From the NCBI GenBank assembly GCA_022865905.1, contig JALHUM010000040.1, positions 1-56,747 of the forward strand: DNA of 56,747 nucleotides, written 5' to 3'. Positions 23,481-36,916 of the stretch are shown here, in pieces (the stretch's first letter is position 1; the number at the start of each line of letters is the position of its first letter). The translations under genes were made by a program, and so were the position numbers. Source of the stretch: Anaerolineales bacterium (GTDB lineage: Bacteria; Chloroflexota; Anaerolineae; Anaerolineales; Villigracilaceae). A model generated the notes under the pieces. The model worked only from the letters and a program-made list of their open reading frames with translations, was not told the origin of the DNA and made no database searches.

Positions 23481-24413
23481 ATGCCGATGCGAAGCACCTA
23501 CTCGGCAAAAGGGCTTGTCCCTGGCCTCATCGTCCGCGCCCAATCGGGCTTTTTCACCGTCCAGACCGAAAGCGGCTCCCTGACCTGTCAACTGCGCGGC
23601 CGCCTCAAGCAAGGCCCCCGCCTGGGCGACATCGCCGCCGTCGGCGACCGGGTGCAGGTGACACCTCTCACCGACGGGACGGGGATGATCGAGTCCATCG
23701 AACCGCGCGCCAGGTCCCTGGTCCGGCTCGACCCGAGGCCGAAGGGCGTCTACCAGCAAATCATCCTGTCCAACCCCGATCAGGCTGTGTTCGTCTTCGC
23801 CTGCGCCAATCCCAGCCCACACACGCGTATGCTCGACCGCTTCTTGGTCATCGCCGAGAAGCAAGGCCTGCCAGCCATCGTCGTCGCCAATAAGCTCGAC
23901 CTGGTGGACCGCGAAGAGGCTGAGGCAACCTTTGGCTACTACCCGGCGCTCGGCTATCCGGTGCTCTATATTTCGGCCAAGACCGGCGAGGGGATCGAAC
24001 TCCTGCGGGCGCGGCTGACGGGCAAAGTATCCGCCCTGGCCGGGCCGAGCGGGGTGGGCAAGTCCAGCCTGCTCAACGCCATCCAGCCTGGGCTGGGACT
24101 GGCCGTGCGCGAGGTCGGCGAGGCGACCGATCGAGGCCGCCACACCACCAACGTGCGCCAGCTCTTCCCGCTCGATGGTGGCGGTTACGTGGCCGATACG
24201 CCCGGCCTGCGCACGCTGGCGCTTTGGGATACCGAGCCGGAAGAACTGGACGGCTACTTCCCGGAGATCGCCCCGCTGGTGGCGCAGTGTGCGTTCAGCG
24301 ATTGCACCCACAGCCACGAGCCGGACTGCGCCGTGCGGGCCGCGGTGGAAGCGGGCAGCGTACAGCCGGAACGGTATGATTCTTACTTGCGGTTACGGGC
24401 AGGGGAGGAGTGA
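23481..24413 (+). CDS. rsgA: ribosome small-subunit biogenesis GTPase RsgA
   Basis: ORF 23250..24413, with the start moved to ATG 23481 just after the PBP stop. It has an OB domain, a circularly ordered GTPase (NKLDL.., GPSGVGKSSLLN) and a C-terminal zinc knuckle (CAFSDCTHSHEPDC). Confidence 0.9.
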   Translation: MPMRSTYSAKGLVPGLIVRAQSGFFTVQTESGSLTCQLRGRLKQGPRLGDIAAVGDRVQVTPLTDGTGMIESIEPRARSLVRLDPRPKGVYQQIILSNPDQAVFVFACANPSPHTRMLDRFLVIAEKQGLPAIVVANKLDLVDREEAEATFGYYPALGYPVLYISAKTGEGIELLRARLTGKVSALAGPSGVGKSSLLNAIQPGLGLAVREVGEATDRGRHTTNVRQLFPLDGGGYVADTPGLRTLALWDTEPEELDGYFPEIAPLVAQCAFSDCTHSHEPDCAVRAAVEAGSVQPERYDSYLRLRAGEE

Positions 24414-24445
24414 TCAGTGACCAGTGAACAGTTATCAGTGACCAG
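24411..24445. repeat. heptanucleotide tandem array (5 units)
   Basis: TGATCAG TGACCAG TGAACAG TTATCAG TGACCAG. It spans the rsgA stop and the first 10 codons of holB. Confidence 0.8.
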
Positions 24446-25445
24446 TCAGAATTGGGGATTTTTAGGACATGAATGGGCGGTGGAGATGCTGAAACAGCAC
24501 ATTGCCCACCAGGCGGTACGCCATGCGTACCTCTTTACCGGCCCCCCCGGCCTGGGCCGCCGCAGCCTAGCTTTGCGCTTTGCCCAGGCCTTGAACTGTC
24601 CCCAGCCCCCTACCCCGGGCGAACCGTGCCGCAATTGCCGAACTTGCAAGCAAATCGAAGCTATGCAATATCCAGACCTTGCGGTCGTGCAGGCTGAAAA
24701 AGAGGGTGGCGTGCTCAAAGTCGAGCAAATCCGCGAGGTGCGGCACAGCCTGTCGCTGGCGCCGTACCAGGGGAGATACCGCGTCGCCCTTTTCCTGCGC
24801 TTTCAGGAGGCGAATCCCAACGCGGCCAACGCCCTGCTCAAGACCCTCGAAGAAGCCCCTCCGCAGGTTATCCTGCTCCTGACCGCCGACAGCGTTGACC
24901 TGCTCCTGCCAACCATCCTCTCGCGCTGCGAGGTGATGCGCCTGCGGCCGCCGTCCATCGAAACCGTGCAGGCTTATCTACAGGAACGTGGAGCAGACGA
25001 AGCCAAAGCACGCCTGATCGCGCATCTTTCGGGTGGGCGTCCCGGTTATGCCCTGCGGCTGATGCAGGATAAGGCTGCATTGGAGTTCCGCCAGACACGG
25101 CTGGAAGATTTTCAAAGACTGCTCAAGTCCACTCGCCGCGAGCGCTTCGCCTATGCCGAGAAATTGACAGACCGAAAAAACGAGGCGAAAGAACGCTTCC
25201 GCGAAACGCTGCTCATCTGGGTCTCGTTCTGGCGGGACGTGATGCTGCGCGCCGCCAAAGCGGATGCCCCACCTACCAACATTGATCGCACAAATGAGAT
25301 TGAAGTACTGGCCGCACAGTTATCTCTACCCGAGACGCGCCGCGTGGTCACAGACATGGAGCACGCAGTAGACCGGCTGGAGAGGAACGTCAATGCCCGG
25401 CTGCTGGCAGAAGTACTGTTACTGGATTGGCCGCACATAAAATAG
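24417..25445 (+). CDS. holB: DNA polymerase III delta-prime subunit
   Basis: ..HAYLFTGPPGLGRRSLA.., a zinc module (CPQPPTPGEPCRNCRTCKQ), ..ANALLKTLEEPP.., ..SRC.. sensor. GTG start within the heptamer array. Confidence 0.85.
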   Translation: MTSEQLSVTSQNWGFLGHEWAVEMLKQHIAHQAVRHAYLFTGPPGLGRRSLALRFAQALNCPQPPTPGEPCRNCRTCKQIEAMQYPDLAVVQAEKEGGVLKVEQIREVRHSLSLAPYQGRYRVALFLRFQEANPNAANALLKTLEEAPPQVILLLTADSVDLLLPTILSRCEVMRLRPPSIETVQAYLQERGADEAKARLIAHLSGGRPGYALRLMQDKAALEFRQTRLEDFQRLLKSTRRERFAYAEKLTDRKNEAKERFRETLLIWVSFWRDVMLRAAKADAPPTNIDRTNEIEVLAAQLSLPETRRVVTDMEHAVDRLERNVNARLLAEVLLLDWPHIK

Positions 25446-25808
25446 ACCCGACAGGCTAGTCATGACCTGACACACCGATTTCTCTGGAGTGTTAACGCCT
25501 GGCAAATATTCTGTAGTGGATGCCATCGAAATTGACCGTTGAGAGCCGTCACATCTGGATAACCCAGGCGAAATCGTGCGCGGGAGCCCATATCTGGGGT
25601 TTTCTTGATCGACGATGCCGCCAGGAATACTTGCCAATTTTGAGGCCCCAAAAATCTCCCAGGGAAATCGGTGTGACAGCAAAAGGAAACTGTCCCCACT
25701 GCGGCATCATGATCGCCGGCATATGGCCTGAAGATCCCAAACGTGTCTGGTTAAATAGTTTTGGCATGCCGATACCAATTTATTAGACCAAATTCTAGAG
25801 AGCTCAAC

Positions 25809-25853
25809 AAAAAAAACGTAGATGGCGAGGGAGCTTGCCAGCTACGTTTTTTC
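25809..25853. terminator. bidirectional rho-independent terminator
   Basis: An A-run, then the stem AACGTAGATGGC / GCCAGCTACGTT, then T6. It lies downstream of the OppF remnant. Confidence 0.65.
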
Positions 25854-25873
25854 TAACCCCTCCAAAGATATGT

Positions 25874-26107
25874 CTACTTCAAGTTTTGGTCGGCGTAGTG
25901 ACACGCCACGAAGTGACCCGGTACCAACTCCTCATAGGGTGGCTCCTCCACGTAACAGCGATCGGTCGCGACCGGACAGCGGGTGTTGAAATTGCAGCCA
26001 ATAGGTGGATTGACTGGGCTGGGGATATCCCCCATCAGGATGATGCGCTTGCTTTTTTTAGTAACATCTGGGTCGGGAACGGGGACGGCTGACATCACCG
26101 CCCGTGT
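25874..26107 (-). pseudogene. remnant of an OppF/DppF-type ABC ATPase (last 70 or so codons only)
   Basis: ..[65 protein letters not shown].. matches only the C-terminal oligopeptide-ATPase extension. No Walker A/B region is upstream. Confidence 0.7.
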
Positions 26108-26371
26108 TCGGATTGATAAATCAAATCGTGTTCTTGTCTAGCCATACCTCGGCGGCCATTGAGCCGTTGCGGATTGACGCGCGCTCTGCGTTGATTTCGA
26201 TTTGGACGGTTGTGGCGGGGGGGCGACCAGTGCCTGCGGCAGATCGTCACGGATTTCGGCATTCTCAGTGGCGCGCACACGCAGACTGTCAGACCCCCAG
26301 GGTTCGATCCGCACGGTCTGATGTCCCAGGTTCCAGACAAGTGTCTGATCCTGCCGCTCAAAGCCAGCCAA
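26108..26371 (-). pseudogene. remnant of a GH31-family glycoside hydrolase N-terminus (about 85 codons, frameshifted)
   Basis: MAGFERQDQTLVWNLGHQTVRIEPWGSDSLRVRATENAEIRDDLPQALVAPP.. The sense continues in another frame as [28 protein letters not shown]. Adding one C to the C7 run (G7 on + at 26217..26223) restores continuity. The fragment then abuts the OppF remnant. Confidence 0.5.
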
Positions 26372-26413
26372 GATTCACTCCTTAATCACTGCTTCCCTGT
26401 TCCTATTAACTCG

Positions 26414-27334
26414 TTAGATATTCAAACGCGGGTCCAGCGCGTCACGCAGGCCGTCGCCAAGTAGGTTGAACCCCAGCACGGTAATCACGATGGCAATGCC
26501 AGGAATGAACAGCAGGTGTGGAGCATTGAACAAATTGTTGCGCTCCTCGCCCAGCATCAGTCCCCACTCGGGTGTGGGCGGTTGTGCCCCCAGCCCCAGA
26601 AATGAGAGGGCTGCGGCGTCGAGTATAGCTGTCGCAATACCGAGTGTTCCCTGAACGATGAGGGGGGGCATGGCATTAGGCAGAATGTGGCGGAATAAGA
26701 TATGGGAGGGAGACGCACCCAGAGCGCGATCGGCGGTCACAAAGTCCAGCTCTTTGACCGAGAGCACGCTGGAGCGCACAATGCGGGCGTATTGCGGAAT
26801 GGAAACGATACTGATCGCCAGGAGCGTGTTGATCAATCCCGGCCCCAATACAGCGACGATGGCGATGGCGAGAAGCAGACTCGGAAAGGCCAACAGTACG
26901 TCCATCATACGCATGATCAGGTTATCCAACCAGCCCCCCACGTAACCGGATACCGCGCCGAGCAAGGTTCCCACCACGATCGCAAACGTTACGCATACAA
27001 ACCCGATCTGCAATGAGAGTCGGGAGCCAAAAACCACCCGGCTGAAAAAGTCCCGGCTGTTACCGTCAATTCCAAAGTAGTGCTCAGTCTGATCGGCGGG
27101 ACATCCCAGCAAATGGATGCACGGGGGGGTGTTGCGTTTGGCGTCGTCCAAAATCTTGGTCGGGTCGTACGTGGCGATAAACGGGGCAAAGATCGCAATC
27201 AGGATCAGCGTGCCCAACATCAATAGCCCTGTGACAGCGGAGCGTTTTTTAAGTAGATGGCGCAGTGCGTTGCGCCACAAACTGTTCGGCGGCCCAGCTG
27301 AAGCCTGGGTCTCCAGCGCGTTATCGAGTTTCAT
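26414..27334 (-). CDS. ABC transporter permease, OppC/DppC type (cassette 1)
   Basis: 306 aa. An N-terminal OppC_N-like segment, 6 TM helices, and an EAA-loop region (..SIVSIPQYARIVRSSVLSVKELDFVTADRALGAS..). Confidence 0.85.
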   Translation of the reverse strand: MKLDNALETQASAGPPNSLWRNALRHLLKKRSAVTGLLMLGTLILIAIFAPFIATYDPTKILDDAKRNTPPCIHLLGCPADQTEHYFGIDGNSRDFFSRVVFGSRLSLQIGFVCVTFAIVVGTLLGAVSGYVGGWLDNLIMRMMDVLLAFPSLLLAIAIVAVLGPGLINTLLAISIVSIPQYARIVRSSVLSVKELDFVTADRALGASPSHILFRHILPNAMPPLIVQGTLGIATAILDAAALSFLGLGAQPPTPEWGLMLGEERNNLFNAPHLLFIPGIAIVITVLGFNLLGDGLRDALDPRLNI

Positions 27335-27345
27335 TCAGTGCTCCA

Positions 27346-28422
27346 CTATTGAAGATGAATGCGCGGATCGAGATAAGCATAGGATGCATCCACGATGAGA
27401 TTGACCGTTACAAAAATGAGTGCGATGATGACAGTGAAAGCCTGCACGACAGAATAATCGCGCGCAAAGATGGAAGCCACGAGGAAGGTACCTACCCCCG
27501 GCAAGCTGAACACGGTTTCCGTCAGAACTGCGCCGCCCAGCAAAGTGCCTAGCTGCAGCCCGACAATGGTGATGATCGGCAGCATGGCGTTGCGCAGGGC
27601 ATGGCGAAGGATGACCACGCGCTCGGGTAGCCCTTTAGCGCGAGCAGTGCGAATATAGTCCAGTCCCATTACCTCCAAAAGACTGGAGCGCGTCATGCGG
27701 GCGATGATGGACATCGGGATCGTGCCTACAGCTATAGAGGGGAGGATCAAGTGGCGCAGTGCATCTCCCAGCACCTTCCAGTTCCCGGAGATGAGCGAGT
27801 TAAAGACGACCAGATTCGAAGCAAAGGTGACCAGAGCCAGTGGAATGCCGCTCAGGTTTTGGAGATGAAAGGTAACGGTGAGCGGCGTCACAGTCGTGCC
27901 CGGGGTGAGACGCCCTGAAGGCGCCAGCCAGAGTGGTGTACCTTTGAGCATGATCGCGAACAGATAAGCCAGCATAAGTCCCAACCAGAACACCGGCATC
28001 GAGACACCAAAGTTCGCAAGGATCATCGTCAGCACATCAATGATTGAATTGTGTCTGGTGGCGGAGATTATTCCCAATATAATGCCAACTACGGTCGCGA
28101 ACAGCATGGCGAAGATGGTCAACTCTACTGTCATAGGCAGGCGGAGCAGTACGATACCAACGACGGGCTGGCTGGTGCGCAGTGAGGTTCCCAGGTTTCC
28201 CTGCGCCAGATTGCCAAGGTAACGAACAAACTGAACAGCGATGGAATCATTGAGGCCTGTGCGTTCGCGGTATTGAAAGCACGACTCGGGTGTGAAATGT
28301 TCGCCTAGCGCCATCATGCAGGGGTCGCCTGGAATGAGCCGGCCCAGAGCGAAGGTGCTTAGCAAAATGCCAAACAGCACCGGGATAACCAGTATCAATC
28401 GCCGAACGAGAAAGCTTATCAT
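27346..28422 (-). CDS. ABC transporter permease, OppB/DppB type (cassette 1)
   Basis: ORF 27346..28506, with the start at MISFLVRRL (28422). EAA loop: ..MSIIARMTRSSLLEVMGLDYIRTARAKGLPE... Confidence 0.85.
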   Translation of the reverse strand: MISFLVRRLILVIPVLFGILLSTFALGRLIPGDPCMMALGEHFTPESCFQYRERTGLNDSIAVQFVRYLGNLAQGNLGTSLRTSQPVVGIVLLRLPMTVELTIFAMLFATVVGIILGIISATRHNSIIDVLTMILANFGVSMPVFWLGLMLAYLFAIMLKGTPLWLAPSGRLTPGTTVTPLTVTFHLQNLSGIPLALVTFASNLVVFNSLISGNWKVLGDALRHLILPSIAVGTIPMSIIARMTRSSLLEVMGLDYIRTARAKGLPERVVILRHALRNAMLPIITIVGLQLGTLLGGAVLTETVFSLPGVGTFLVASIFARDYSVVQAFTVIIALIFVTVNLIVDASYAYLDPRIHLQ

Positions 28423-28520
28423 TGTGTTGGACCGACCTCCGAACCAGAGTAAGGAGCGATGGGGCATTGCCCGGTGCAATGCCCCATCGCCAACACGATC
28501 ATACAAGAAGCAATCTGTTA

Positions 28521-30194
28521 CTACGGTGCGTTCAGCTGCTTGGCAAAGTAGCCGCTGAAGTATTCAAAGACGCCTGTGTTGCCCTTGTGCAGCGGATTCA
28601 AAGCATCCCACATCACGATAAAGGTCTCCACGACGTCATTCGCATCCATAGCTGTCTCGTCGCTGAACTTGGCGTTCTTGTTCAGGGTGAACGTCCACTC
28701 TTTCAAGTCTGCACTAGCCGTATAGCTTTCGGCAGCCGAAGGCACGAGTTCCGTCGTATCTGGCTTGTACCAATACAACGTGTCAAAGATGTGGTAACAG
28801 GGACGCAGCGTTTCACCGTCGGTCTCGTCGTTGCAGTACAGGCTGATCGGCTCGCCGTTCTGTATAAAGTTCAATTGATCCTGGCCCGGCACCGACATAA
28901 GGTTGAACATTTCGTCGGCCAGCGGGCTAGCCTGGGCGCCATCCACGGTCGCCTTATAGGCGATGCCGTTGGTGCCATGTGCAATGGGGATCATCGGTAT
29001 ATGCTGCTTGACTAACTCAGCGACTTTGGCGTATAGCGTATTGCGCTGAGCGGGGTCGGCCACCTGGCCGGCTGCGTGGATCGCATCGACGAGGTCGGGA
29101 TATACATCGCCGAAGTTCTTGGACGCGCCGGTAAAGTGAAAGTCGTAAAAGTTGGTCGGGTCGGGATAATCTGCGCCCCAACCCAGCATGAACATGCCTT
29201 GTTCGCCGGCGGCAACAGAGGCCAGGAATTTGCCGGATTCGATCGGTTCGAGCGTGACATTGACGCCGATCTGAGCCAATTGCGACTGGATCTCCTGCCC
29301 CACCTTACCGGGCAGCGGCAGATAAACGCGCACTACGTCGCGATAGGACAGGGTTGTCGAGAACCCGTTCGGGAAGCCCGCATCGGCCAATAGGCTCTTG
29401 GCCGCGGTGACATCATAGTCATACCACTTGAAGCCATCGATGTAGCCAGGCACCATTACAGGCGGGACGAACTGTTCAGCAATAATCGAGCCAGCCGGGT
29501 AATAGTTGTCTACAATGCGATTCTTATCGATCGCCATGGCCAGGGCTTGGCGCACTTTTTCGTTGTCGAACGGTTTGATGGTATTGTTAAAGCCCAGGTA
29601 AAAGACGTTGAGCCCGGTTCGCGGAAGCAATTTGAGCGTGGGATCGGCTTGTATCTTGGCAAAGTCATCCGGGCTGGGGTTGTCAATAATATCTGCTGTG
29701 CCAGCCTGCAGTTCCAGCAAGCGGGCGGCAGCTTCACTGTTCCAGCGAATGATGAACTCCTTGTTCTTGGGCGCGGGGCCCCAATAGTTCGGATTAGGAA
29801 CGAGAGTCAGGTGATCGCCGCGCACCCATTCCTTAACCATGTAAGGGCCGGTGCCAATGGGATTGTTGAGCAAATCAGCCCCGCCGCCCCCGGTCTTTTC
29901 CAGGTATGCAGCGCTCTGGATGCCGAATGCCGGGAAGGCCACCTTGGACAGGAAGGCTGGATCCGGCGTGCACAACGTGAACTTCACTGTGTATTGATCG
30001 ATGGCCTCAATGGACTTTATCTCTCCGCCATATGTGCAATCCGGGGCGGCCAGGCTCAACGGCTGGAAGGCAACCGGAGGGCTAGTTGGGACTTGCGTTG
30101 CCGGGACCACAGTGGTGGTTTTTGGCCCGCAGGCCGCCAGAATCATGCTGGTCAAAACGACCAGCGCTATGAGCAAAAACATTGAGCGTTTCAC
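28521..30194 (-). CDS. family-5 (OppA/DppA-type) solute-binding lipoprotein, apparently circularly permuted
   Basis: ORF 28521..30272, with GTG 30194 after GGAGAAAG preferred. Lipobox ILAAC. The usual N-terminal 117 or so aa (..QNGEPISL..DETDGETL..WTFTLNKNAKF..FEYFSGYF..) are at the C-terminus. See finding. Confidence 0.8.
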   Translation of the reverse strand: MKRSMFLLIALVVLTSMILAACGPKTTTVVPATQVPTSPPVAFQPLSLAAPDCTYGGEIKSIEAIDQYTVKFTLCTPDPAFLSKVAFPAFGIQSAAYLEKTGGGGADLLNNPIGTGPYMVKEWVRGDHLTLVPNPNYWGPAPKNKEFIIRWNSEAAARLLELQAGTADIIDNPSPDDFAKIQADPTLKLLPRTGLNVFYLGFNNTIKPFDNEKVRQALAMAIDKNRIVDNYYPAGSIIAEQFVPPVMVPGYIDGFKWYDYDVTAAKSLLADAGFPNGFSTTLSYRDVVRVYLPLPGKVGQEIQSQLAQIGVNVTLEPIESGKFLASVAAGEQGMFMLGWGADYPDPTNFYDFHFTGASKNFGDVYPDLVDAIHAAGQVADPAQRNTLYAKVAELVKQHIPMIPIAHGTNGIAYKATVDGAQASPLADEMFNLMSVPGQDQLNFIQNGEPISLYCNDETDGETLRPCYHIFDTLYWYKPDTTELVPSAAESYTASADLKEWTFTLNKNAKFSDETAMDANDVVETFIVMWDALNPLHKGNTGVFEYFSGYFAKQLNAP

Positions 30195-30344
30195 AATCTT
30201 TCTCCTCTCAAAATTTGGAAAAACTAAAGGTTGGGTTTGGGGGGAAACAAAAATAGTATCGCTGCCTGGCACCTCCTCTATCTAGTAATAAGGAACATTA
30301 GAGTTTATGCACAATAATGTTTTGATACAAAAGTAGGCTATGCT

Positions 30345-30444
30345 GTCATTGCGAGGAGCGTTCTTTGCGACGAAGCAATCCCCAGGTGGTCTGTTTTGCC
30401 TCATAATCGGGAGATTGCTTCGCCAAAGTGCGGCTCGCAATGAC
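30345..30444. repeat. GTCATTGCGAG...CTCGCAATGAC palindromic repeat
   Basis: GTCATTGCGAGGAGCG..CGAAGCAATCCCC....GGGAGATTGCTTCG..CGGCTCGCAATGAC. It is a variant of the GTCAYY..GAG family. Confidence 0.65.
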
Positions 30445-30479
30445 ACCTACGAGCGAATCTCTTATTGTGAATAGAATTT

Positions 30480-30507
30480 ATTATACAGCAAATTTACTAA
30501 AATGCGA
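30480..30507 (-). promoter_or_regulatory. candidate promoter of cassette 1 (TCGCAT-16-TATAAT)
   Basis: The minus-strand TATAAT is at 30485..30480 and TCGCAT at 30507..30502. The motif block AATTTGCTGTATAAT is conserved with 34902..34929. Confidence 0.35.
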
Positions 30508-30578
30508 CGTGTGGAATGCCGGGGCCGCGCAGATTTACCTCCGCCGGATTCGAGGGCCACACGCCAGCCACCGGCGCG
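30497..30578 (-). pseudogene. 3'-terminal fragment of a second AmmeMemoRadiSam-type radical SAM gene
   Basis: It encodes ..APVAGVWPSNPAEVNLRGPGIPHVAF-stop. The intact gene ends ..APVAGVWTANPESVNLQGHGIPRVAFL-stop at 34916. Homology stops abruptly at 30578. Confidence 0.75.
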
Positions 30579-30684
30579 TCGCCTGGTCAGCGACCTGGAA
30601 CGCGCGGTAGGTCGGCTGGAGAAGAACGTCAACGCCCGTTTGTTGGCTGAGGTGCTGCTGTTGGATTGGCGGAAGATAAAATAA
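30579..30684 (+). pseudogene. 3'-terminal fragment of a second holB
   Basis: It encodes ..RRLVSDLERAVGRLEKNVNARLLAEVLLLDWRKIK-stop. The intact holB ends ..RRVVTDMEHAVDRLERNVNARLLAEVLLLDWPHIK-stop at 25445. Confidence 0.75.
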
Positions 30685-30715
30685 ACCCGACAGGCATGTA
30701 ATGGCCTGTCGGGTT
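30684..30715. terminator. hairpin terminator between the holB fragment and cassette 2
   Basis: AACCCGACAGGC-ATGTAATG-GCCTGTCGGGTT is a perfect 12-bp stem. Downstream of the intact holB only the left arm survives (GACCCGACAGGC at 25446 onward). Confidence 0.55.
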
Positions 30716-30737
30716 CGCGTTTGCTGGAATACAGCGA

Positions 30738-31697
30738 TTACATGTGCCGCGAGCTGTGCGGGTCGAAGGCGTCCCGCATCCCATCTCCCATCAGGTTGAT
30801 GCTAAGGATGGTAAAGATGATGAACAGGCTCGGGAAGACCCACATCCACCAGGCGCCTCTTTGTATAAAGGACTGGGCGCTGGTGAGCATGTTGCCCCAC
30901 GAGGCGGTCGGCGGTTGGACGCCCAGGCCGAGGAAGGATACGTAGGCCTCCATCAGGATGGCGCCCGCAAGGCCCAGGGTGGCCGAAACGATGATGATGC
31001 CCAACGTATTCGGCACCAGGTGATTGAAGAAAATGCGGGAATTACTGGCGCCGAGCGATCTGGCAGCAGAAATATAATCCATTTCCTTCAACGAAAGAAC
31101 ATTCGCCCGCACGATACGCGCCAGGTACATCCAGGAGGTCAGACCGATGACCAGGATGACAATCCCTACACTTCCGCTGAAGGATAGGCCGAAGATATTG
31201 ATTGTTTGAACATCCTTGCCCAGGAACTTGCCCAAAACGATCAGCAGGAAAAGGGACGGGATGGAGAGCATCGCTTCGGTAAAGCGCATCAGGATCGCAT
31301 CCACCCAGCCGCCATAATAAGCGGCTACGCCTCCCAGAACGGTTCCAACAGAGATCTCGATAACGACCGCTAGAAGGCCAACGATCAAGGAGATCTGCCC
31401 ACCATAGACGACCCGGCTGAAACTATCCCGCCCGATGCTGTCGGTTCCGAACCAGTTTTCGGCGGAAGGCGGCGTTAAGTTCGCTTTCAAATCTACTGAG
31501 TTCGCCTTTTCGAGAGGGATGAAAATCGAACCGACGATGATGAAAAGCAATAGAAGAGCAATCCCAATCCCCCCGGCCAGCGCCATCTTGTGCTTACGGA
31601 AACGCCTCCAGATCAATTGACCGGGGGTCAGCGCGGCGCCGGTAGATTCTGCTTTTAGCGTAGAAATTCCGTTTGAGTTCAAGGTATCCGACGACAT
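30738..31697 (-). CDS. ABC transporter permease, OppC/DppC type (cassette 2)
   Basis: ORF 30738..31715, with the start at MSSDTL (31697). EAA loop: ..TSWMYLARIVRANVLSLKEMDYISAARSLGAS... Confidence 0.85.
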   Translation of the reverse strand: MSSDTLNSNGISTLKAESTGAALTPGQLIWRRFRKHKMALAGGIGIALLLLFIIVGSIFIPLEKANSVDLKANLTPPSAENWFGTDSIGRDSFSRVVYGGQISLIVGLLAVVIEISVGTVLGGVAAYYGGWVDAILMRFTEAMLSIPSLFLLIVLGKFLGKDVQTINIFGLSFSGSVGIVILVIGLTSWMYLARIVRANVLSLKEMDYISAARSLGASNSRIFFNHLVPNTLGIIIVSATLGLAGAILMEAYVSFLGLGVQPPTASWGNMLTSAQSFIQRGAWWMWVFPSLFIIFTILSINLMGDGMRDAFDPHSSRHM

Positions 31698-31711
31698 AGG
31701 CTCTCCGTAGA

Positions 31712-32671
31712 TCAACCCAAACGAATACGCGGGTCAACGAGGGTATAGACCATATCCGTGATGATCGTGAACAGTACCACCGCAGTAGAAACGATCAACA
31801 GCACGCCGAGCACCACCGGGAAGTCGCCGCGCTGGGCGTATTCCCAGAACAGCCGTCCCATGCCGGGCCAGGCAAAAACGGACTCGGTCACCAGCGCGCC
31901 GCCGAGCAAATAGGGAATGTCCAATCCGATAATGGTCACAAACGGCAGGGCGGCATTGCGCAAGGCGTGCTTATAGAGCACGGCCCGTTCGGTGAGCCCC
32001 TTGGCGCGCGCCGTGCGGACATAGTCCATGCCAAGAACTTCCAGGATACTGGAGCGAATAAAGCGGGAATAGTTGGCCGTTGTGATGATGACCAGCGCCG
32101 ATACAGGCAAGACCATGTGGCGTACTAACTGGCCCAGATCTTTTGGATCCCAAATATCTGCTCCAGTCGGCATGTAAGGCCAGCCCATCTGTTTAAACTT
32201 GACCGCAAAGATCAAGATCAGTCCCAAAGCGATGAAAAAGATCGGCATGGAATAGCCGACGAATGAAAAGGTTGTGATCAGGTTGTCCAGAAAAGAATAT
32301 TGCTTGACGGCTGAAATGATCCCCAGTATCAAAGCGACTGCCAGGGTGATGATCTCGGCCGTTACCATGAGGATGAGTGTCATCGGAAGGCGTTGGGCGA
32401 TCATCAATGAAACAGGCTGCTTGGAAAAGAAAGATTTACCCAACTCGCCTTGCACAGCCAACCCCAGCCAGCGCAGATATTGCACCGGCAAGGGCCGGTT
32501 CAGCCCCAGGCGCTCACGCAGCGCGGCGCGGTCAGCGGCGCTCATGTTCGGGTTGGTCGCATACTGGGCCAGGGGGTCCGCCGAAAGGCGTGTGAGGATA
32601 AAGCACAAGACGGTGATGATTAAAAGAGTGAAGAGGGCTTGGACCAAACGACGTGCCAGGTAAGACCACAT
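31712..32671 (-). CDS. ABC transporter permease, OppB/DppB type (cassette 2)
   Basis: ORF 31712..32707, with the start at MWSYLARRL (32671) after GAGGAG. EAA loop: ..SRFIRSSILEVLGMDYVRTARAKGLTE... Confidence 0.85.
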   Translation of the reverse strand: MWSYLARRLVQALFTLLIITVLCFILTRLSADPLAQYATNPNMSAADRAALRERLGLNRPLPVQYLRWLGLAVQGELGKSFFSKQPVSLMIAQRLPMTLILMVTAEIITLAVALILGIISAVKQYSFLDNLITTFSFVGYSMPIFFIALGLILIFAVKFKQMGWPYMPTGADIWDPKDLGQLVRHMVLPVSALVIITTANYSRFIRSSILEVLGMDYVRTARAKGLTERAVLYKHALRNAALPFVTIIGLDIPYLLGGALVTESVFAWPGMGRLFWEYAQRGDFPVVLGVLLIVSTAVVLFTIITDMVYTLVDPRIRLG

Positions 32672-32744
32672 GCGCAACTCCTCGGCTTTCTCATGGAATT
32701 TGACCAAGTATGCTACAGGCTGGGTTTTGCGTCAATGGTATTCA

Positions 32745-32880
32745 TTATCAGTAATTCACGAAAAGGCTTCGTAGTGGCGACTTCCCTGGCACCGCCCGCC
32801 AGGGCAGGTGTAGTCGCTTTTTCGCCGCACGACTGAAGTCGCCACTACGATTTCGTGATCTACTGATTATACAGAGTTTA
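32745..32880. mobile_element. MITE-like element with 19-bp imperfect TIRs (ATCAGTAnnTCACGAAA) around a TAGTGGCGAC palindrome
   Basis: The left end is TTATCAGTAATTCACGAAA. The reverse complement of the right end is ATAATCAGTAGATCACGAAA (17 of 19 match). The core is CGTAGTGGCGACTTC...GACTGAAGTCGCCACTACG. No TSD could be identified by eye. Confidence 0.55.
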
Positions 32881-32941
32881 TATGGCATGAGAGGCAGGGA
32901 GATTTCCCTGCCTCTCAATGTCATTCTACAACTTTGACTTG

Positions 32942-34750
32942 CTACTTGACGTCCCAGACCTCGGAGTTCCAGTCCAGGTTGCTCGCAAAGCCGAAGGGGC
33001 CGGGCACAAAGCGATCCACCATGCCGTAGACGTTGGCACGGGCGTACATCATGACAACTAAGTAGTTGTCGAAGATGTATTTCTGCAACTCATCAATGGC
33101 TACCTTGCGGGCGGCCGGGTCAGCGGTAGCGTTCACCGCTGCCATCAGTGTATCCAGGGCGGGATCGCAGATATGATAGTTGTTCGCGCCGGATGGGTTG
33201 CCCGTACTCGGTACGGTTTTGCAGGCGTAGCTATCCTCCACGCCCGTCATCGGGTCGGGATAAAAGCCAGTGGTGTATCCATCCATATCGAACTTGCCAG
33301 TCGCCATGTTACCGCCGTCGCTATAACCAGCGAAGAAGGTGCCAGCCGGGGTGTGGATCGGCTTGAACTCGATGCCAATTTTCGCCAGGTCAGACTGAAC
33401 CGCAGTGGCAATATCAATACGAATCGGCGCAGTGGTGGTCTCGAAATTGAAGGACAGCTTGGTTTCCACACCATTGCACATACCAACGCGGATGCCATCC
33501 GCGCCGAGGGTGTAGCCGGCCTGGTCGAGCAAGGCGGCGGCCTCGGTGGGATTGTAGGCGTCCGGCGTCAGGCTGGCGTTCGTCCATGACGAGTTTGGCC
33601 ACTGCGTGGCGGGAACGATTGTCTCGCCAGCCAGAAGGCTATCCACAATGGTCTGGCGGTCGATGCCGAGGGTAATGGCCTTACGGACGCGTACATCCTT
33701 GAACGGGCAGAAGCCGTCCAAATCGGAGATGCCCTTGCCATCCACGCCGGCGGTGGTGCCCAGGTTGAAGAAGTAGTGCTCGAAGTCAAAACCGGGCTTT
33801 ACCACCAGGTGGACAGCCGGTTCGAGGGCGCCCACGGTAGTGATATCAGACTCTGCAAAGTTCGGATACCAGTCCAGATCGCCGGTTTGCAATGCTGCCA
33901 GAGCGGTGTTCGAATCGGGTACGAACTTGATTTGGACTTGATCGAGCTTGGCGCGGCCCGAAAAGAAGTTCGCGTTGGGCAGCAAGGTCATGTGATCGCC
34001 CGCGACCCATTCTGCGATCACCCACGGCCCGGATGAAATGGTCGGCCAGTGAATAAAGGGATCGCCCTCCAGGGCAGTATGGCCTTCCAGTATGTGCTTG
34101 GGCATGAGGGAACCATAGTTGTTTGGGCCCTGGGTGAACAGGGTCTGCCATGGCGGGTATAACTCGCTGAAGTGAAGCACAACGGTTGTATCGTCAGGGG
34201 TGTCTATGCTGGTGATCTTGTCATAGCCTACACGGGTCATGGGGGCATTGCCGGGATCCATGATGGCCTGCCAGGTAAACAAGACATCTGCGGAAGTAAG
34301 CGGCTGGCCATCCGACCAGAACAGGCAGGGCTTGAGGTGCCAGGTAATGGTCAGGCCGTCCGCTGAGACTCCGCCATTGGCTGCACTCGGAACCTCAGCG
34401 GCGAGTTCAGGCACGAAGGTGCCATTCTCATCCCATTCCCCCAGTCCAACCACGGTCAACTGGGAGATCCAGGCGGCATAAGACATCTGAGTAAACTCAG
34501 AAATAATGTTGTCAGGCTCCTGATCCCAGGCGCCGGTCACGGACTTGCCGCCGGATGGGAAGGGAATCGGCTCAGTGCCTACGGGTGTGCAGGCTGCCAC
34601 GGGAGGCTGGGTGGCCTCAGGCGGTTGGGTCGCAGCAACGGGTGGTTGGGTTGCAGGCGCCGTTGTGGGTGTGGTCGTCGGACCACAAGCCGCCAGTGCC
34701 AGGCTTGCCAGCACCAGCAGCGAAAACAGTAGATAAAATGAACGTTTCAC
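32942..34750 (-). CDS. family-5 (OppA/DppA-type) solute-binding lipoprotein, canonical topology (cassette 2)
   Basis: 602 aa. Lipobox LALAAC, a Pro/Thr/Gln linker with repeated ATQPP, then the normal order of SBP_bac_5 blocks (..LTITWHLKPCLFWSDGQPLTSADV.. early, ..GPWVIAEWVAGDHMTL.. in the middle). Confidence 0.85.
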   Translation of the reverse strand: MKRSFYLLFSLLVLASLALAACGPTTTPTTAPATQPPVAATQPPEATQPPVAACTPVGTEPIPFPSGGKSVTGAWDQEPDNIISEFTQMSYAAWISQLTVVGLGEWDENGTFVPELAAEVPSAANGGVSADGLTITWHLKPCLFWSDGQPLTSADVLFTWQAIMDPGNAPMTRVGYDKITSIDTPDDTTVVLHFSELYPPWQTLFTQGPNNYGSLMPKHILEGHTALEGDPFIHWPTISSGPWVIAEWVAGDHMTLLPNANFFSGRAKLDQVQIKFVPDSNTALAALQTGDLDWYPNFAESDITTVGALEPAVHLVVKPGFDFEHYFFNLGTTAGVDGKGISDLDGFCPFKDVRVRKAITLGIDRQTIVDSLLAGETIVPATQWPNSSWTNASLTPDAYNPTEAAALLDQAGYTLGADGIRVGMCNGVETKLSFNFETTTAPIRIDIATAVQSDLAKIGIEFKPIHTPAGTFFAGYSDGGNMATGKFDMDGYTTGFYPDPMTGVEDSYACKTVPSTGNPSGANNYHICDPALDTLMAAVNATADPAARKVAIDELQKYIFDNYLVVMMYARANVYGMVDRFVPGPFGFASNLDWNSEVWDVK

Positions 34751-34901
34751 GTTTCTCTCCTCCTACAAAGAGAATGATTGGGGTTGGGTTATGGTTGCCG
34801 GTTGCGCAACCATTGTCGAGCGAGTCGGACAGTTTGGTCAAAACTAGCGATAGACCACCTCCTTTTATCGAAAACGACGGTTTCTTAGAATGTGAGGATA
34901 C

Positions 34902-34929
34902 ATTATACAGCAAATTCATAAAAATGCTA
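34902..34929 (-). promoter_or_regulatory. candidate promoter of cassette 2 (TAGCAT-16-TATAAT)
   Basis: The minus-strand TATAAT is at 34907..34902 and TAGCAT at 34929..34924. It overlaps the stop region of the radical SAM gene, and the block is conserved at 30480..30507. Confidence 0.35.
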
Positions 34930-36031
34930 CACGCGGAATCCCATGTCCTTGAAGGTTCACAGACTCAGGATTCGCTGTCCAAACCCCGGCCACCGGCGCG
35001 CCGCATTTCGGACAGGCGCCCTGCGCGGTGATCTGGTAATCCGTAATGGTGTAGGCCAGACGCCGGACGAGGGGATGATTGCACTTCGAGCAAAGGGTCG
35101 CCTCGTAATCCTCCACCCGTCCCGGCAGGTTGCCGGCATAGACGTGGCGCAGACCGGCCTCCCGTCCGATATCCGCCGCCCGGAGCAAGGTACGGGCTGG
35201 CGTCGGGTCTGGATCGGTCATCTGGTAATCCGGGTGGAAGGCCGTCACGTGCCAGGGAATGTCTGGCGAAACAGCGGCCAAGAAGCGCGCCGCCTCCCAC
35301 AGTTCCTCGTTGCTGTCGTTGAAGTCGGGCACGATCAGCGTCACCACCTCCACCCACAGCCCCATTTCGCGCGCCCGCCGGATGGTATCCAGCACGTTCT
35401 TGAGCACCCCGCCCAGCCGACGGTAGTTCTTGTCCTGCATGGATTTCAAATCTACTTTGTAGGCGCTCAGGTAGGGGCGCAAGTATTCCAGGGCTTCCGG
35501 CGTGGCGTTGCCGTTGGAGACGTAGACGCACTTCATCCCGGCCGCAACGGCCTTTTTAAAAATAGCCACCGCCCACTCGCTGGTGATTAGTGGCTCGTTG
35601 TAAGAGGAGGCAACCAATTCTGCGCCCATGCGCCGCCCGAAGGCCACGATCTGCTGTGGCGTGATCTTGCGAATGAAGTTGATGGAATCATCCGCCTGCG
35701 GGTCGCGCAACGCCTGCGAGGTCAACCAGTTCTGGCAGAAACCGCAATGGAAATCGCAGCCCAACATGCCGAAGGTCAGCGCGGTCGCGCCGGGCAGCAC
35801 GTGGAAGAACGGCTTTTTTTCGATCGGATCGGCCTGCAGACCGGCCACGTAGCCCCACGGGACGCGCAACTTCCCACCCGCGTTGAAACGCACCTGGCAG
35901 ATGCCGCGTTTACCTTCCCGGATGAGGCAGCGATGAGCACAAGCTGTGCAGCGCACTACGCCCTCTTCTTGTTTTGTGTAAAGCTCGCCCTCGATCGTCA
36001 ATTCGTCTAACATCTTTGCCAATGCCACCAT
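34916..36031 (-). CDS. AmmeMemoRadiSam-system radical SAM enzyme (PFL-activase-like)
   Basis: N-terminal CTACAHRC cluster, a radical SAM CDFHCGFCQNW motif, and a C-terminal CSKC..CPKC zinc-ribbon-like tail. Confidence 0.8.
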   Translation of the reverse strand: MVALAKMLDELTIEGELYTKQEEGVVRCTACAHRCLIREGKRGICQVRFNAGGKLRVPWGYVAGLQADPIEKKPFFHVLPGATALTFGMLGCDFHCGFCQNWLTSQALRDPQADDSINFIRKITPQQIVAFGRRMGAELVASSYNEPLITSEWAVAIFKKAVAAGMKCVYVSNGNATPEALEYLRPYLSAYKVDLKSMQDKNYRRLGGVLKNVLDTIRRAREMGLWVEVVTLIVPDFNDSNEELWEAARFLAAVSPDIPWHVTAFHPDYQMTDPDPTPARTLLRAADIGREAGLRHVYAGNLPGRVEDYEATLCSKCNHPLVRRLAYTITDYQITAQGACPKCGAPVAGVWTANPESVNLQGHGIPRVAFL

Positions 36032-36047
36032 CTCAACCTGCCTTCAA

Positions 36048-36106
36048 CCATCAGCCATCAGCTATCAGCTATCTGCCATCAGCTATCTGCCATTCGTCAT
36101 CGTCAT
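36048..36106. repeat. heptanucleotide tandem array (about 8 units, YATCAGC variant)
   Basis: CCATCAG CCATCAG CTATCAG CTATCTG CCATCAG CTATCTG CCATTCG TCATCGT. Its last unit supplies the target site of the adjacent MITE. Confidence 0.8.
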
Positions 36107-36290
36107 GTAACTACTCAGCCAGGGTGTCATTCTGCCTGCACCGTGCGCAGGCACGTGTGAGCCGCCGATGCTCTTCCGGCGGCGAAGAATCTCCTCCTAC
36201 TGGGGGGGAGACCCTTCGGTCGCACACTTGCCCTGGCATGCAAGTGCCAGGGAAGACCGCTCCCTCAGGGTGACATGCCTGAGTAGTTAC
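36107..36290. mobile_element. MITE (184 bp) with 12-bp perfect TIR GTAACTACTCAG and 8-bp TSD ATCGTCAT
   Basis: The TIRs are at 36107..36118 and 36279..36290. The direct repeat ATCGTCAT is at 36099..36106 and 36291..36298. It has no coding capacity, and ORF 36111..36311 is repeat-derived. Confidence 0.85.
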
Positions 36291-36313
36291 ATCGTCATTT
36301 ATAATACACAATT

Positions 36314-36916
36314 ATGATAACCCTGGCAATACAGGCCGGAGGCGAATCCAGCCGCATGGGAAAGGATAAAGCCCTCCTGCCCTTCCTGGGCCACCCGCTA
36401 ATTCTGCGGGTGGTGGACCGTCTCGCCGCGTTCGCGGACGAGGTCGTCGTCACGGCCAACAACCCGGCCGACTATGCTTTCCTCGGCCTGCTGCTCTTCG
36501 CGGACCTCCTGCCTGGTCGCGGCGCCCTGGGTGGACTCTACACTGCGATAAACGTCGCCAAAAACCCTCTGGTGGCCGTCGCGGCCTGCGACATGCCCTT
36601 TGCCAGCCGCGCCCTCTTCGAGTACGAACGCGACCTGCTCATCGAAACGGGCGCGGATGTGGTCATTCCATCCTCCGCCGAAGGCTTGGAACCGCTGCAC
36701 GCCGTCTATCGGCGCGCGACCTGCCTGCCTGCGATTCAAGACGCGCTGGCGGCGGGCGAGTGGAAGCTGATCGCCTGGTTCCCGGCGGTAAAGGTGCGCA
36801 TGCTCACCCCCGCAGAGACAGCTCGACACGATCCGCAAGGCCTGGCTTTTTTGAACCTGAACACGCCCGAAGAGTTCCGCCGGGCCGAACGCCTTGCAAC
36901 GGAATCGGCGACTTGA
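36314..36916 (+). CDS. mobA: molybdenum cofactor guanylyltransferase
   Basis: MITLAIQAGGESSRMGKDKALLPF.. is the N-terminal MobA signature. Also ..AACDMPF.., 200 aa. Confidence 0.8.
   Translation: MITLAIQAGGESSRMGKDKALLPFLGHPLILRVVDRLAAFADEVVVTANNPADYAFLGLLLFADLLPGRGALGGLYTAINVAKNPLVAVAACDMPFASRALFEYERDLLIETGADVVIPSSAEGLEPLHAVYRRATCLPAIQDALAAGEWKLIAWFPAVKVRMLTPAETARHDPQGLAFLNLNTPEEFRRAERLATESAT

What the first reader, a model, noticed from the sequence alone, without database searches (positions are those of the whole stretch)
30480..30715. Chimeric scar (radical-SAM 3' end fused to holB 3' end) shows two ABC cassettes stacked between duplicated conserved flanks
On the minus strand, 30497..30578 encodes ..APVAGVWPSNPAEVNLRGPGIPHVAF-stop. 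This is a diverged copy of the last 26 codons of the radical SAM gene (..APVAGVWTANPESVNLQGHGIPRVAFL-stop at 34916). Both copies are followed by the same non-coding block ATTATACAGCAAATT, which contains a TATAAT on the operon strand. At 30578/30579 the similarity switches abruptly. The plus strand then reads ..RRLVSDLERAVGRLEKNVNARLLAEVLLLDWRKIK-stop, a diverged copy of the holB C-terminus at 25340..25445. Both holB copies are followed by ACCCGACAGGC. The hairpin is intact only at 30684..30715. The layout is therefore holB | cassette 1 | radical-SAM fragment + holB fragment | cassette 2 | radical SAM gene. Each permease/SBP cassette carries the same pair of flanks. By eye the flank copies are only about 75-80% identical, with many synonymous differences. 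The two cassettes are not close paralogues: one SBP is permuted, the other canonical. This argues against a recent tandem duplication. It fits capture of an allelic version of the locus from a relative by recombination in the conserved flanks. GCGCG microhomology sits at the junction.
Basis: seen in the sequence. Interest (0 to 1): 0.65.

Follow-up and report, generated by a model that had tools for sequence, protein, structure and literature searches.

The report
Recombination scar from a stacked transporter cassette
A 240-base relic, made of the tail of a radical-SAM gene fused to the tail of the holB gene, marks where an uncultured Anaerolineales bacterium added a foreign 5.3-kb peptide-transporter cassette next to its own; this is a well-resolved natural example of a known mechanism, not a new one.

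Summary
30575-30708 copies the holB 3' end plus terminator (78%, E 7e-27). 30480-30582 copies the radical-SAM (AmmeMemoRadiSam) 3' end plus a conserved TATAAT block (73%, E 1e-11). The two fragments meet head to head.

The fragments differ from the resident genes mostly at synonymous sites (pN/pS 0.23, neutral expectation 0.95). They were therefore cut from working orthologues and did not decay in place. Relatives carry one cassette of either type between holB and the radical-SAM gene.

Public metagenome contigs hold both parents:
- An uninserted allele: holB identical to the window up to about 25190-25270, running into the scar's holB fragment, terminator and OppC2.
- An intact donor-type radical-SAM gene, 98% identical to the scar's other fragment.

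Both parents carry GGCGCGTCGC (30573-30582), and the join lies there. Contigs from two independent studies span the junction.

Best explanation: one homologous crossover in holB plus one illegitimate join at a 10-bp microhomology. This resembles homology-facilitated illegitimate recombination. It added about 5.3 kb (cassette 1) ahead of the native cassette 2. The mechanism is known, so interest is moderate.

The parts
24417..25445 (+). holB (DNA polymerase III delta'). It is intact but chimeric: native up to about 25190-25270, and donor-derived from 25271 to the stop.
   Evidence: TIGR00678 scores 190 bits against a cutoff of 180.6. Contigs of X4-X7 are 99-100% identical over 24300-25187 and about 92% over 25191-25270. 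From 25271 they are unlike the window.
25190..25270 (.). Zone of the left, homologous crossover inside holB.
   Evidence: Identity to the uninserted allele falls stepwise here. Loose ends after 25270 read CCCCGTCAACGCAGATCGCACGGACGAGAT in X4, X5, X6 and X7. This is an inferred crossover.
25446..25469 (+). Degraded copy of the holB terminator. The left arm is kept and the right arm is broken. From about 25460 to 25980 the sequence is 97-99% identical to L005.
25589..25786 (+). A third, older radical-SAM 3' fragment, on the opposite strand and of the L096-type lineage. It lies inside the donor block.
   Evidence: tblastn to the L096 radical-SAM protein, E 3e-8. tblastx hits to the radical-SAM genes of L003, L001, L029, L006 and L080.
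25874..26098 (-). Remnant of an OppF ATPase gene: the last 74 codons only.
   Evidence: Pfam oligo_HPY. NCBIfam OppF positions 264-332 of 334, E 2e-19.
26414..30272 (-). Cassette 1, the newcomer. OppC-like permease at 26414-27334, OppB-like permease at 27346-28506, and a circularly permuted family-5 solute-binding protein at 28521-30272. It has no ATPase genes.
   Evidence: dN/dS against the nearest relatives L081 and L082 is 0.07-0.24.
30344..30449 (.). Pair of short inverted repeat units in the cassette-1 leader (GTCATTGCGAG ... CTCGCAATGAC). The units are highly repeated in metagenomes.
   Evidence: Depth reaches 290 with loose ends on both sides. Copies occur in L041 and L135.
30480..30494 (-). 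Conserved block (AATTTGCTGTATAAT on the minus strand) just after the radical-SAM stop. It is the probable -10 element of the cassette promoter, and this is the donor copy.
   Evidence: Identical to 34902-34916. TTGCTGTATAAT follows the radical-SAM stop in L006, L018, L096, L097 and L131.
30497..30572 (-). Fragment of a donor radical-SAM gene: the last 26 codons plus the stop.
   Evidence: 98% identical to intact radical-SAM genes in X12, X24, X27 and X38.
30573..30582 (.). Junction: the 10-bp microhomology GGCGCGTCGC, present in both parents.
   Evidence: Native holB contigs match from 30573 onwards. Donor radical-SAM contigs match up to 30582.
30583..30684 (+). Fragment of the native holB: the last 34 codons plus the stop.
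   Evidence: 99-100% identical to the 3' end of intact holB genes in X4-X7.
30683..30716 (.). Intact 13-pair hairpin. It is the native terminator between the convergent holB and OppC2 genes.
   Evidence: Contiguous with the holB 3' end and OppC2 in X6 record 13 and X7 record 16, and colinear with L001.
30738..34750 (-). Cassette 2, native. OppC-like permease at 30738-31715, OppB-like permease at 31712-32707, and a canonical family-5 solute-binding protein at 32942-34750. It has no ATPase genes.
   Evidence: Same order and position as in L001. dN/dS is 0.12-0.17.
34902..34916 (-). Native copy of the promoter block.
34916..36031 (-). Intact native radical-SAM gene (AmmeMemoRadiSam system radical SAM enzyme).
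   Evidence: TIGR04337 scores 298.7 bits against a cutoff of 220. Contigs of X4-X7 cover it continuously at about 95-100% with no sharp break.

Best explanation
The scar is the right-hand joint of an additive integration of foreign DNA.

**Before the event.** The recipient had holB -> terminator <- OppC2-OppB2-SBP2 <- promoter block <- radical-SAM gene.

**The donor.** DNA came from a diverged Anaerolineales relative, about 22-27% different in these gene ends. It carried holB 3' end, older debris, cassette 1, the promoter block and the radical-SAM 3' end.

**The event.**
- On the left, the donor DNA paired with the recipient by ordinary homologous recombination inside holB, at about 25190-25270.
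- On the right, there was no homology in the required orientation. The donor radical-SAM strand was joined to the recipient's holB at a shared 10-bp, 90% G+C microhomology, GGCGCGTCGC.
- About 60-140 bp of native holB was replaced by about 5.3 kb of donor DNA.

**The result.**
- holB stays intact, with a donor C-terminus.
- The native holB tail is left stranded as a fragment next to its terminator.
- The donor's radical-SAM tail is left as a fragment that still carries the promoter block in front of cassette 1.
- The cell now has two different ATPase-less peptide/nickel-type importer cassettes. Each has its own copy of the promoter block, and the native terminator separates them.

**Shown:** the duplicated ends, the joint, both parental alleles, the uninserted allele, and the shared microhomology.

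**Inferred:** that both crossovers happened in one event (as in homology-facilitated illegitimate recombination), that the left one was RecA-type, that the block is a promoter, and how the DNA entered the cell.
For: 1. The flank copies are significant and ungapped.
2. Divergence of the fragments from the resident gene ends is synonymous-biased. pN/pS is 0.23 against 0.95 for random placement (0 of 5000 simulations), dS is about 1.2, and there are no indels or stops. The fragments therefore diverged while part of working genes.
3. The cassettes are only 27-39% identical in protein.
4. Relatives carry one cassette. L001 has type 2; L003, L006 and L018 have type 1; L029 has none.
5. The scar's holB fragment, hairpin and OppC2 are colinear with holB-OppC2 of L001.
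6. The uninserted allele is present in X4, X5, X6, X7, X12, X24, X27, X52, X53 and X54.
   - Contigs match from exactly 30573, preceded by in-frame holB (…GGCGGCGCGGCTGTCTCTTGCCGA).
   - They are 99-100% identical to the fragment.
   - Those strains' holB 5' part is 99-100% the window's up to 25187 and diverges at 25271.
7. Intact donor-type radical-SAM genes occur in X12, X24, X27 and X38. They are 98% identical over 30480-30582 and then continue as radical-SAM sequence (ACTTCGGACAAGTCC…).
8. The junction is spanned with 0-1 differences in X1, X2 and X3, which come from two studies.
9. There is no comparable break in the radical-SAM gene.
10. These features match published descriptions of homology-facilitated illegitimate recombination: a one-sided anchor and 3-10 bp joints (PMC6382021, PMC2884548, PMC5361080).
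Against: - The parental alleles were reconstructed from short Logan contigs and 22-30-nt loose ends. They are not contiguous haplotypes.
- Identity to the uninserted allele declines in steps (100%, 99%, 92%, 67%). The left crossover is therefore located only to within about 80-100 bp, and a conserved patch could blur it.
- Cassette 2 and the radical-SAM gene are about 95-98% identical to the X4-X7 contigs, not 100%. Those strains are close relatives, not the exact ancestor.
- No contig was found with the complete donor arrangement. The donor-type radical-SAM contigs differ from the window beyond 30480, and the nearest cassette-1 relatives lie in other contexts.
- Whether Anaerolineales take up DNA by transformation is unknown.
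Confidence: 0.8

Rival explanations
1. Mirror image. Cassette 1 and the whole of holB are native. A foreign block (holB 3' fragment, terminator, cassette 2, radical-SAM 3' part) came in with its homologous anchor in the radical-SAM gene, and the illegitimate joint formed in the recipient's radical-SAM tail.
For: The scar itself is symmetric and fits either direction. In the flanks the window is closest overall to L006, which carries a type-1-like cassette.
Against: Strains in four or more other samples combine a holB 5' part that is 99-100% the window's with the scar-type holB 3' end and OppC2. The identity break lies in holB, about 70 nt upstream of the joint position. No such break is seen in the radical-SAM gene. 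L006's cassette is only 48-67% identical in protein to cassette 1. Part of the block left of cassette 1 is 97-99% identical to L005, whose holB is only about 79% identical, so that block has moved recently.
Confidence: 0.07
2. Two steps. First, an unequal exchange between sister chromosomes at the microhomology made a tandem duplication of the native locus. Later, the left copy was replaced by a foreign allele through double homologous recombination.
For: A tandem-duplication joint has exactly this head-to-head geometry.
Against: The native radical-SAM gene reads GGCGCGCCGC at this point. The scar and the donor-type genes read GGCGCGTCGC. The radical-SAM fragment is donor-type (98%) right up to the joint. 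The second step would therefore need a crossover within the last few bases of an 80-nt fragment. No duplicated-identical intermediate was seen. Other joints between the same kinds of partners exist in X4 and X52.
Confidence: 0.05
3. Old in-place tandem duplication of the whole interval, followed by divergence of the two copies.
For: The geometry of the joint.
Against: The flanks are 73-78% identical in DNA, while the cassettes are 27-39% identical in protein and one binding protein is permuted. pN/pS is 0.23 in fragments that would have been non-coding from the start. The fragments are 98-100% identical to intact genes elsewhere.
Confidence: 0.01
4. Assembly chimera between two co-occurring strains, or chance similarity of GC-rich sequence.
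For: The source is probably a metagenome-assembled genome, and several strains co-occur in these samples.
Against: Independent Logan contigs of X1, X2 and X3 (two studies) cross the joint with 0-1 differences. A 10-nt overlap is too short to mislead a k-mer assembler. E-values are 7e-27 and 1e-11.
Confidence: 0.01

Closest known systems
Homology-facilitated illegitimate recombination (HFIR), shown experimentally in Acinetobacter baylyi, Streptococcus pneumoniae and Pseudomonas stutzeri (de Vries & Wackernagel 2002; Prudhomme et al. 2002; Meier & Wackernagel 2003; as summarised in PMC6382021 and PMC2884548)
   Same: One end of the incoming DNA is anchored by homology. The other end is joined at a short (3-10 bp) microhomology. 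Foreign DNA is added, and a short stretch of recipient DNA between anchor and joint is lost.
   Different: This case is inferred from natural sequences of uncultured Chloroflexota, not observed in transformation assays. RecA dependence and the route of DNA entry are unknown. The joint falls in the same gene that served as the anchor, so a visible duplicate of the gene's tail remains.
Arrays of orphan immunity genes and effector 3' remnants in Vibrio cholerae T6SS clusters, and orphan Rhs/CDI toxin tips (PMC5361080)
   Same: A conserved upstream region serves as the anchor. Incoming modules push the old module downstream instead of replacing it, leaving 3' remnants of the displaced gene. HFIR was proposed as the mechanism.
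   Different: The cargo here is nutrient-uptake permease and binding-protein cassettes, not toxin/immunity pairs. Both parental alleles and the exact 10-bp joint could be recovered here.
Swapping of variable loci by recombination in conserved flanking genes, for example pneumococcal cps between dexB and aliA, or the O-antigen locus between galF and gnd (from general knowledge, not tested here)
   Same: Among relatives the holB to radical-SAM interval holds alternative cassettes between conserved flanks. holB itself is a mosaic of tracts closest to different relatives.
   Different: A clean swap needs two homologous crossovers and leaves no scar. Here one crossover was illegitimate, so the result is a stack of two cassettes.
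Tandem-duplication (amplification) joints formed at microhomology
   Same: The 3' part of the downstream flank is fused head to head with the 3' part of the upstream flank at a short GC-rich repeat.
   Different: The two units are not copies of each other, and the two sides of the joint come from different lineages.

Membership tests
HFIR-type additive integration | One end integrated by homologous recombination in a shared anchor sequence | tested here: met
   holB is colinear and in frame throughout. Identity to the uninserted allele is 99-100% up to 25187, about 92% over 25191-25270, and about 67% from 25271.
HFIR-type additive integration | The other end joined at a short microhomology (3-10 bp, usually G+C-rich) between otherwise unrelated sequences | tested here: met
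   GGCGCGTCGC (10 bp, 9 of 10 G/C) is shared by native holB contigs (match from 30573) and donor radical-SAM contigs (match to 30582).
HFIR-type additive integration | Net gain of foreign DNA, with loss of a short recipient stretch between anchor and joint | tested here: met
   About 5.3 kb (25271-30572) replaces about 63-144 nt of native holB. The native stretch was reconstructed from loose ends.
HFIR-type additive integration | Donor and recipient are distinct lineages | tested here: met
   Flank copies differ by 22-27% with pN/pS 0.23. Each fragment is 98-100% identical to an intact gene in other metagenomes.
HFIR-type additive integration | RecA dependence, and entry by natural transformation as a single event | not testable with these tools
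   There is no culture and no genetics. Sequence cannot exclude a one-step against a two-step history, except by parsimony.
Tandem duplication | The two units are copies of one another, with equal divergence across the unit | tested here: not met
   Cassette proteins are 27-39% identical and one SBP is permuted, while the flanks are 73-78% identical in DNA.
Site-specific cassette systems (integron, transposon, integrative element) | Integrase or transposase gene, and specific attachment or terminal repeats at both ends of the inserted block | tested here: not met
   The only long ORFs in 25271-30582 are the three transporter genes, plus antisense ORFs inside them. The ends of the block lie inside holB and inside a radical-SAM gene and share no repeat. 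The rest of the window was not screened for integrases.

The most novel reading that the evidence does not exclude
The holB to radical-SAM interval of these Anaerolineales may be a recurrent landing site. The tail of an essential gene with its terminator on one side, and the radical-SAM tail with the promoter block on the other, act as homology arms. ATPase-less importer cassettes are repeatedly swapped and, when one crossover is illegitimate, stacked.

Contigs of other samples show at least one, and perhaps two, further independent joints between the same kinds of partners:
- OppC2 stop | GTGGGT | radical-SAM codon ~286 onwards, in X4 and X52.
- Radical-SAM fragment cut at 30531 | holB ~25139, in X4.

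If real, these would make the locus a natural record of many HFIR events in an uncultured population.
Probability: 0.35. Interest if true: 0.55.

Novelty: new member of a known kind. Interest (0 to 1): 0.4.

Why it matters
Illegitimate joints that add genes are thought to be a major but poorly documented source of bacterial genome novelty. They are rarely caught with both parents and the product in hand. Here the recombinant, the uninserted allele and a donor-type allele can all be read from public metagenomes of an uncultured lineage, down to the 10 shared bases at the joint.

The case shows how a cell can gain a second, different substrate-uptake cassette without losing the first and without any mobile-element machinery. 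It also gives an internal clock. The fragments are 98-100% identical to their parents, so the event is recent. The mechanism itself is established, so the value lies in a clean natural example and in a locus worth mining at population level.

Tried and rejected
- An exact-sequence look-up of OppC1 in the contig index found nothing.
- The species-representative genome scan gave no relative closer than about 82%, so it could not identify donor or recipient by itself. Comparing the 100-nt fragments with those loci was inconclusive (84% against 79%).
- The idea that cassette 1 is a plain allele from a sister strain was dropped. Its nearest relatives are in other contexts:
  - L081 (91% nt) has a nucleotidyltransferase gene upstream and no radical-SAM gene.
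  - L102 is a full five-gene operon with OppD and OppF.
- A search for similar holB or radical-SAM fragments in all 160 fetched loci found none outside the window.
- The 77-aa ORF at 26138-26371 looked to me like a glycosidase N-terminus. It has no Pfam or NCBIfam hit, so the idea is unsupported.
- The consensus promoter scan did not call the TATAAT block, because its -35 is poor. Its status as a promoter rests on conservation only.
- No Rfam family matches anywhere in 25300-36400.
- A second X4 joint (30531 | holB ~25139) could not be confirmed from the holB side. Only a contig end at 25135 was seen there.

Full report
**1. The observation**

blastn of 30400-30800 against the whole window gives two strong, ungapped matches and nothing else of note.
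- 30575-30708 matches 25336-25469: 78.4% over 134 nt, E 7e-27. This is the last 35 codons of holB plus the start of its terminator.
- 30480-30582 matches 34902-35004: 72.8% over 103 nt, E 1e-11. This is the last 26 codons of the radical-SAM gene plus the 15-nt block ATTATACAGCAAATT.

The two matches overlap at 30575-30582, so the two gene tails are fused at their truncated ends.

Only the copy at 30683-30716 still folds into a 13-pair hairpin. The one after the full-length holB has lost its right arm.

Family searches confirm the layout:
- holB: TIGR00678, 190 bits, cutoff 180.6.
- A radical-SAM gene of the AmmeMemoRadiSam type: TIGR04337, 299 bits.
- Two OppC/OppB/family-5 binding-protein cassettes without ATPase genes.

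**2. Not a duplication that decayed in place**

The cassette proteins are distant paralogues: SBP 27%, OppC 39%, OppB 36%. SBP1 is circularly permuted relative to solved DppA. Residues 484-575 align to DppA 48-146, and residues 83-468 align to 150-541.

The fragments differ from the resident gene ends mainly at synonymous sites:
- 10, 10 and 27 differences at codon positions 1, 2 and 3.
- pN 0.14 and pS 0.60, so pN/pS is 0.23.
- Random placement of the same number of changes gives 0.95 ± 0.30, and none of 5000 simulations was as low.
- There is no indel or stop in 237 nt.

Divergence of this kind accumulates in working genes, not in a dead fragment.

**3. Relatives**

A scan of one genome per species with holB returned 80 Anaerolineales loci. 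Mapping the window's proteins on them gives:

| Locus | Content between holB and the radical-SAM gene |
|---|---|
| L001 | type-2 cassette |
| L003, L006, L018 | type-1-like cassette |
| L029 | none; holB is directly next to the radical-SAM gene |

The stretch from the scar's holB fragment through the hairpin into OppC2 is colinear with holB-OppC2 of L001. The block TTGCTGTATAAT follows the radical-SAM stop in L006, L018, L096, L097 and L131. It also occurs in front of a type-1 SBP in L127. It is better conserved than synonymous sites, so it is probably the -10 element of the cassette promoter, although the consensus scan did not call it.

**4. The junction is real**

Logan contigs of three public runs from two studies cross 30578/30579 with 0-1 differences:
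- X1 record 3: 30532-30800.
- X2: 29815-30867.
- X3 record 6: 30523-30707.

**5. The uninserted allele**

In X4, X5, X6 and X7, and in X12, X24, X27, X52, X53 and X54, contigs begin to match the scar at exactly 30573. They are preceded by …GGCGGCGCGGCTGTCTCTTGCCGA. In the holB frame this reads AARLSLAE, followed by ARRLVSD….

These contigs are 99-100% identical to the holB fragment (X6 record 9, 0 of 70; X4 and X5, 1 of 98). They run on through the hairpin into OppC2 (X6 record 13, 1 of 158; X7 record 16).

Laid on the full-length holB, contigs of X4-X7 show this profile:

| Window region | Identity to the window |
|---|---|
| 24300-25187 | 99-100% |
| 25191-25270 | about 92% |
| from 25271 | no longer match |

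- The loose ends after 25270 read CCCCGTCAACGCAGATCGCACGGACGAGAT.
- In X7 the loose end after 25300 reads CGAGGCGCTGGCGGCGCGGCTG.
- These join colinearly, base for base (offset 5239), onto the 24 nt that precede 30573.

So strains exist whose holB is the window's 5' part followed by the scar's 3' part, with cassette 2 directly behind. Coverage of 25284-25365 is zero in X4 and X5, so the window's own holB tail is absent there.

**6. The donor-type allele**

In groundwater and aquifer runs X12, X24, X27 and X38, contigs match 30480-30582 with 2 differences in 103. They then continue as ACTTCGGACAAGTCCCTTGCGCGGTGATCT. The resident radical-SAM gene reads ATTTCGGACAGGCGCCCTGCGCGGTGATCT at the same place. 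These are therefore intact radical-SAM genes of the lineage that gave the fragment.

Native holB matches from 30573 and donor radical-SAM matches to 30582. Both parents therefore share GGCGCGTCGC, and the exchange lies within these ten bases. The resident radical-SAM gene has GGCGCGCCGC instead.

**7. Reconstruction**

| Sequence | Reading across the joint |
|---|---|
| Native holB | …CTTGCCGA-GGCGCGTCGC-CTGGTCAGC… |
| Donor radical-SAM strand | …CCAGCCACC-GGCGCGTCGC-ACTTCGGAC… |
| Window | …CCAGCCACC-GGCGCGTCGC-CTGGTCAGC… |

The left end of the foreign block lies in holB at about 25190-25270 and keeps the reading frame. This is what a homologous crossover gives. Roughly 5.3 kb (25271-30572) replaced 63-144 nt of native holB.

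This is the pattern described for homology-facilitated illegitimate recombination: a one-sided anchor and 3-10 bp joints (PMC6382021, PMC2884548). The same mechanism was proposed for module stacking in T6SS clusters (PMC5361080).

The radical-SAM gene shows no comparable break. This argues against the mirror-image history.

**8. The donor block is itself a patchwork**

- 25460-25674 and 25840-25980 are 97-99% identical to L005, whose holB is only about 79% identical. The switch lies at the holB stop and terminator.
- 25589-25786 is a third, older radical-SAM tail on the plus strand.
- 25874-26098 is the last 74 codons of an OppF gene.
- 26101-30300 is 89-91% identical to L082 and L081, which lie in other contexts. 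L102 shows the full SBP-B-C-D-F operon.
- 30344-30449 holds short repeat units that are very abundant in metagenomes.
- holB itself is a mosaic: about 91% to L006 over 24642-24956, and about 92% to L001 over 25002-25271.

**9. Consequences**

- Both cassettes have intact reading frames. Their dN/dS against their nearest relatives is 0.07-0.24.
- Each has its own copy of the promoter block, and the native hairpin lies between them.
- Neither cassette has ATPase genes, and there are none in the window. The ATPases must therefore be supplied from elsewhere, as in the single-cassette relatives.

**10. Possible recurrence**

- X4 and X52 hold a contig in which the OppC2 stop is followed by GTGGGT and then radical-SAM sequence from about codon 286.
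- X4 holds a contig in which the scar-type radical-SAM fragment ends at 30531 and continues as holB from about 25139.
- Neither joint can be derived from the window's joint by deletion. Both rest on short contigs.
- L127 shows OppC2, terminator, promoter and a type-1 SBP without any scar.
- No other holB or radical-SAM fragments were found in the 160 fetched loci.

**11. Verdict**

The mechanism is a known one. What is unusual is how completely it can be resolved here. Novelty: a new member of a known kind. Interest: 0.4.

Noticed in passing
window 28521-30272 (minus strand): SBP1 is a circularly permuted family-5 solute-binding protein. The segment that is N-terminal in DppA (5f1q residues 48-146) sits at its C-terminus (residues 484-575). 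The same full-length architecture is shared by dozens of metagenome relatives (L081-L118).
   Followed up: partly
window 25460-25980 and L005 4309-4677: This block is 97-99% identical to contig JBDRTP010000135.1 (L005), while the adjacent holB genes are only about 79% identical. The switch is at the holB stop and terminator. L005 lacks 25675-25839. This suggests recent exchange of the block between lineages.
   Followed up: partly
window 25589-25786 (+) and 25874-26098 (-): Two further gene relics lie just downstream of holB. One is a radical-SAM C-terminal fragment of a different lineage (ends …GMPIPIY*, like L096). The other is the last 74 codons of an OppF ATPase. They face each other across a hairpin at 25823-25840.
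   Followed up: partly
window 24417-25445: holB is a mosaic of tracts closest to different relatives: about 91% to L006 over 24642-24956 and about 92% to L001 over 25002-25271.
   Followed up: partly
window 30344-30449; also 36016-36100: Short repeat units (GTCATTGCGAG… in inverted pairs) have very high depth in metagenome contigs, up to about 290 at 30360 and about 1000 at 36016-36100, with loose ends on both sides. They look like REP- or MITE-like elements spread through these communities.
   Followed up: partly
window 34840-34860 and relatives (L006, L018, L096, L097, L131, L127): A conserved AAAGGAGGTGG motif lies about 45 nt downstream of the TATAAT block and about 100 nt upstream of the SBP start codon. 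It is absent from the cassette-1 leader. Its role is unknown and there is no Rfam match.
   Followed up: no
Runs X4 and X52 (contigs laid on window 30737 and 35174); run X4 (30531): Other joints between the same partners occur in other samples. One is OppC2 stop | GTGGGT | radical-SAM from about codon 286, in two runs. The other is a radical-SAM fragment cut at 30531 joined to holB at about 25139, in one run.
   Followed up: partly
L127 1-1906: This is another stack: OppB2-OppC2, a terminator hairpin, a GCTGTATAAT promoter, then a type-1 SBP (69% identical). There are no holB or radical-SAM remnants in its 208-nt spacer.
   Followed up: partly
L001 15345-15430 and L003 14148-14234: In these two relatives the radical-SAM protein ends early (…GVWPEHPRRV/G*), and the conserved promoter block is missing after the stop.
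   Followed up: no
window 30502-30684 (+): A 60-codon ORF starts at an ATG antisense to the radical-SAM fragment and runs in frame through the joint into the holB tail. There is no evidence that it is expressed.
   Followed up: no
window 26138-26371 (-): A 77-codon ORF lies between OppC1 and the OppF remnant. This stretch is shared with L082 and L089. It has no family match and its origin is unknown.
   Followed up: partly
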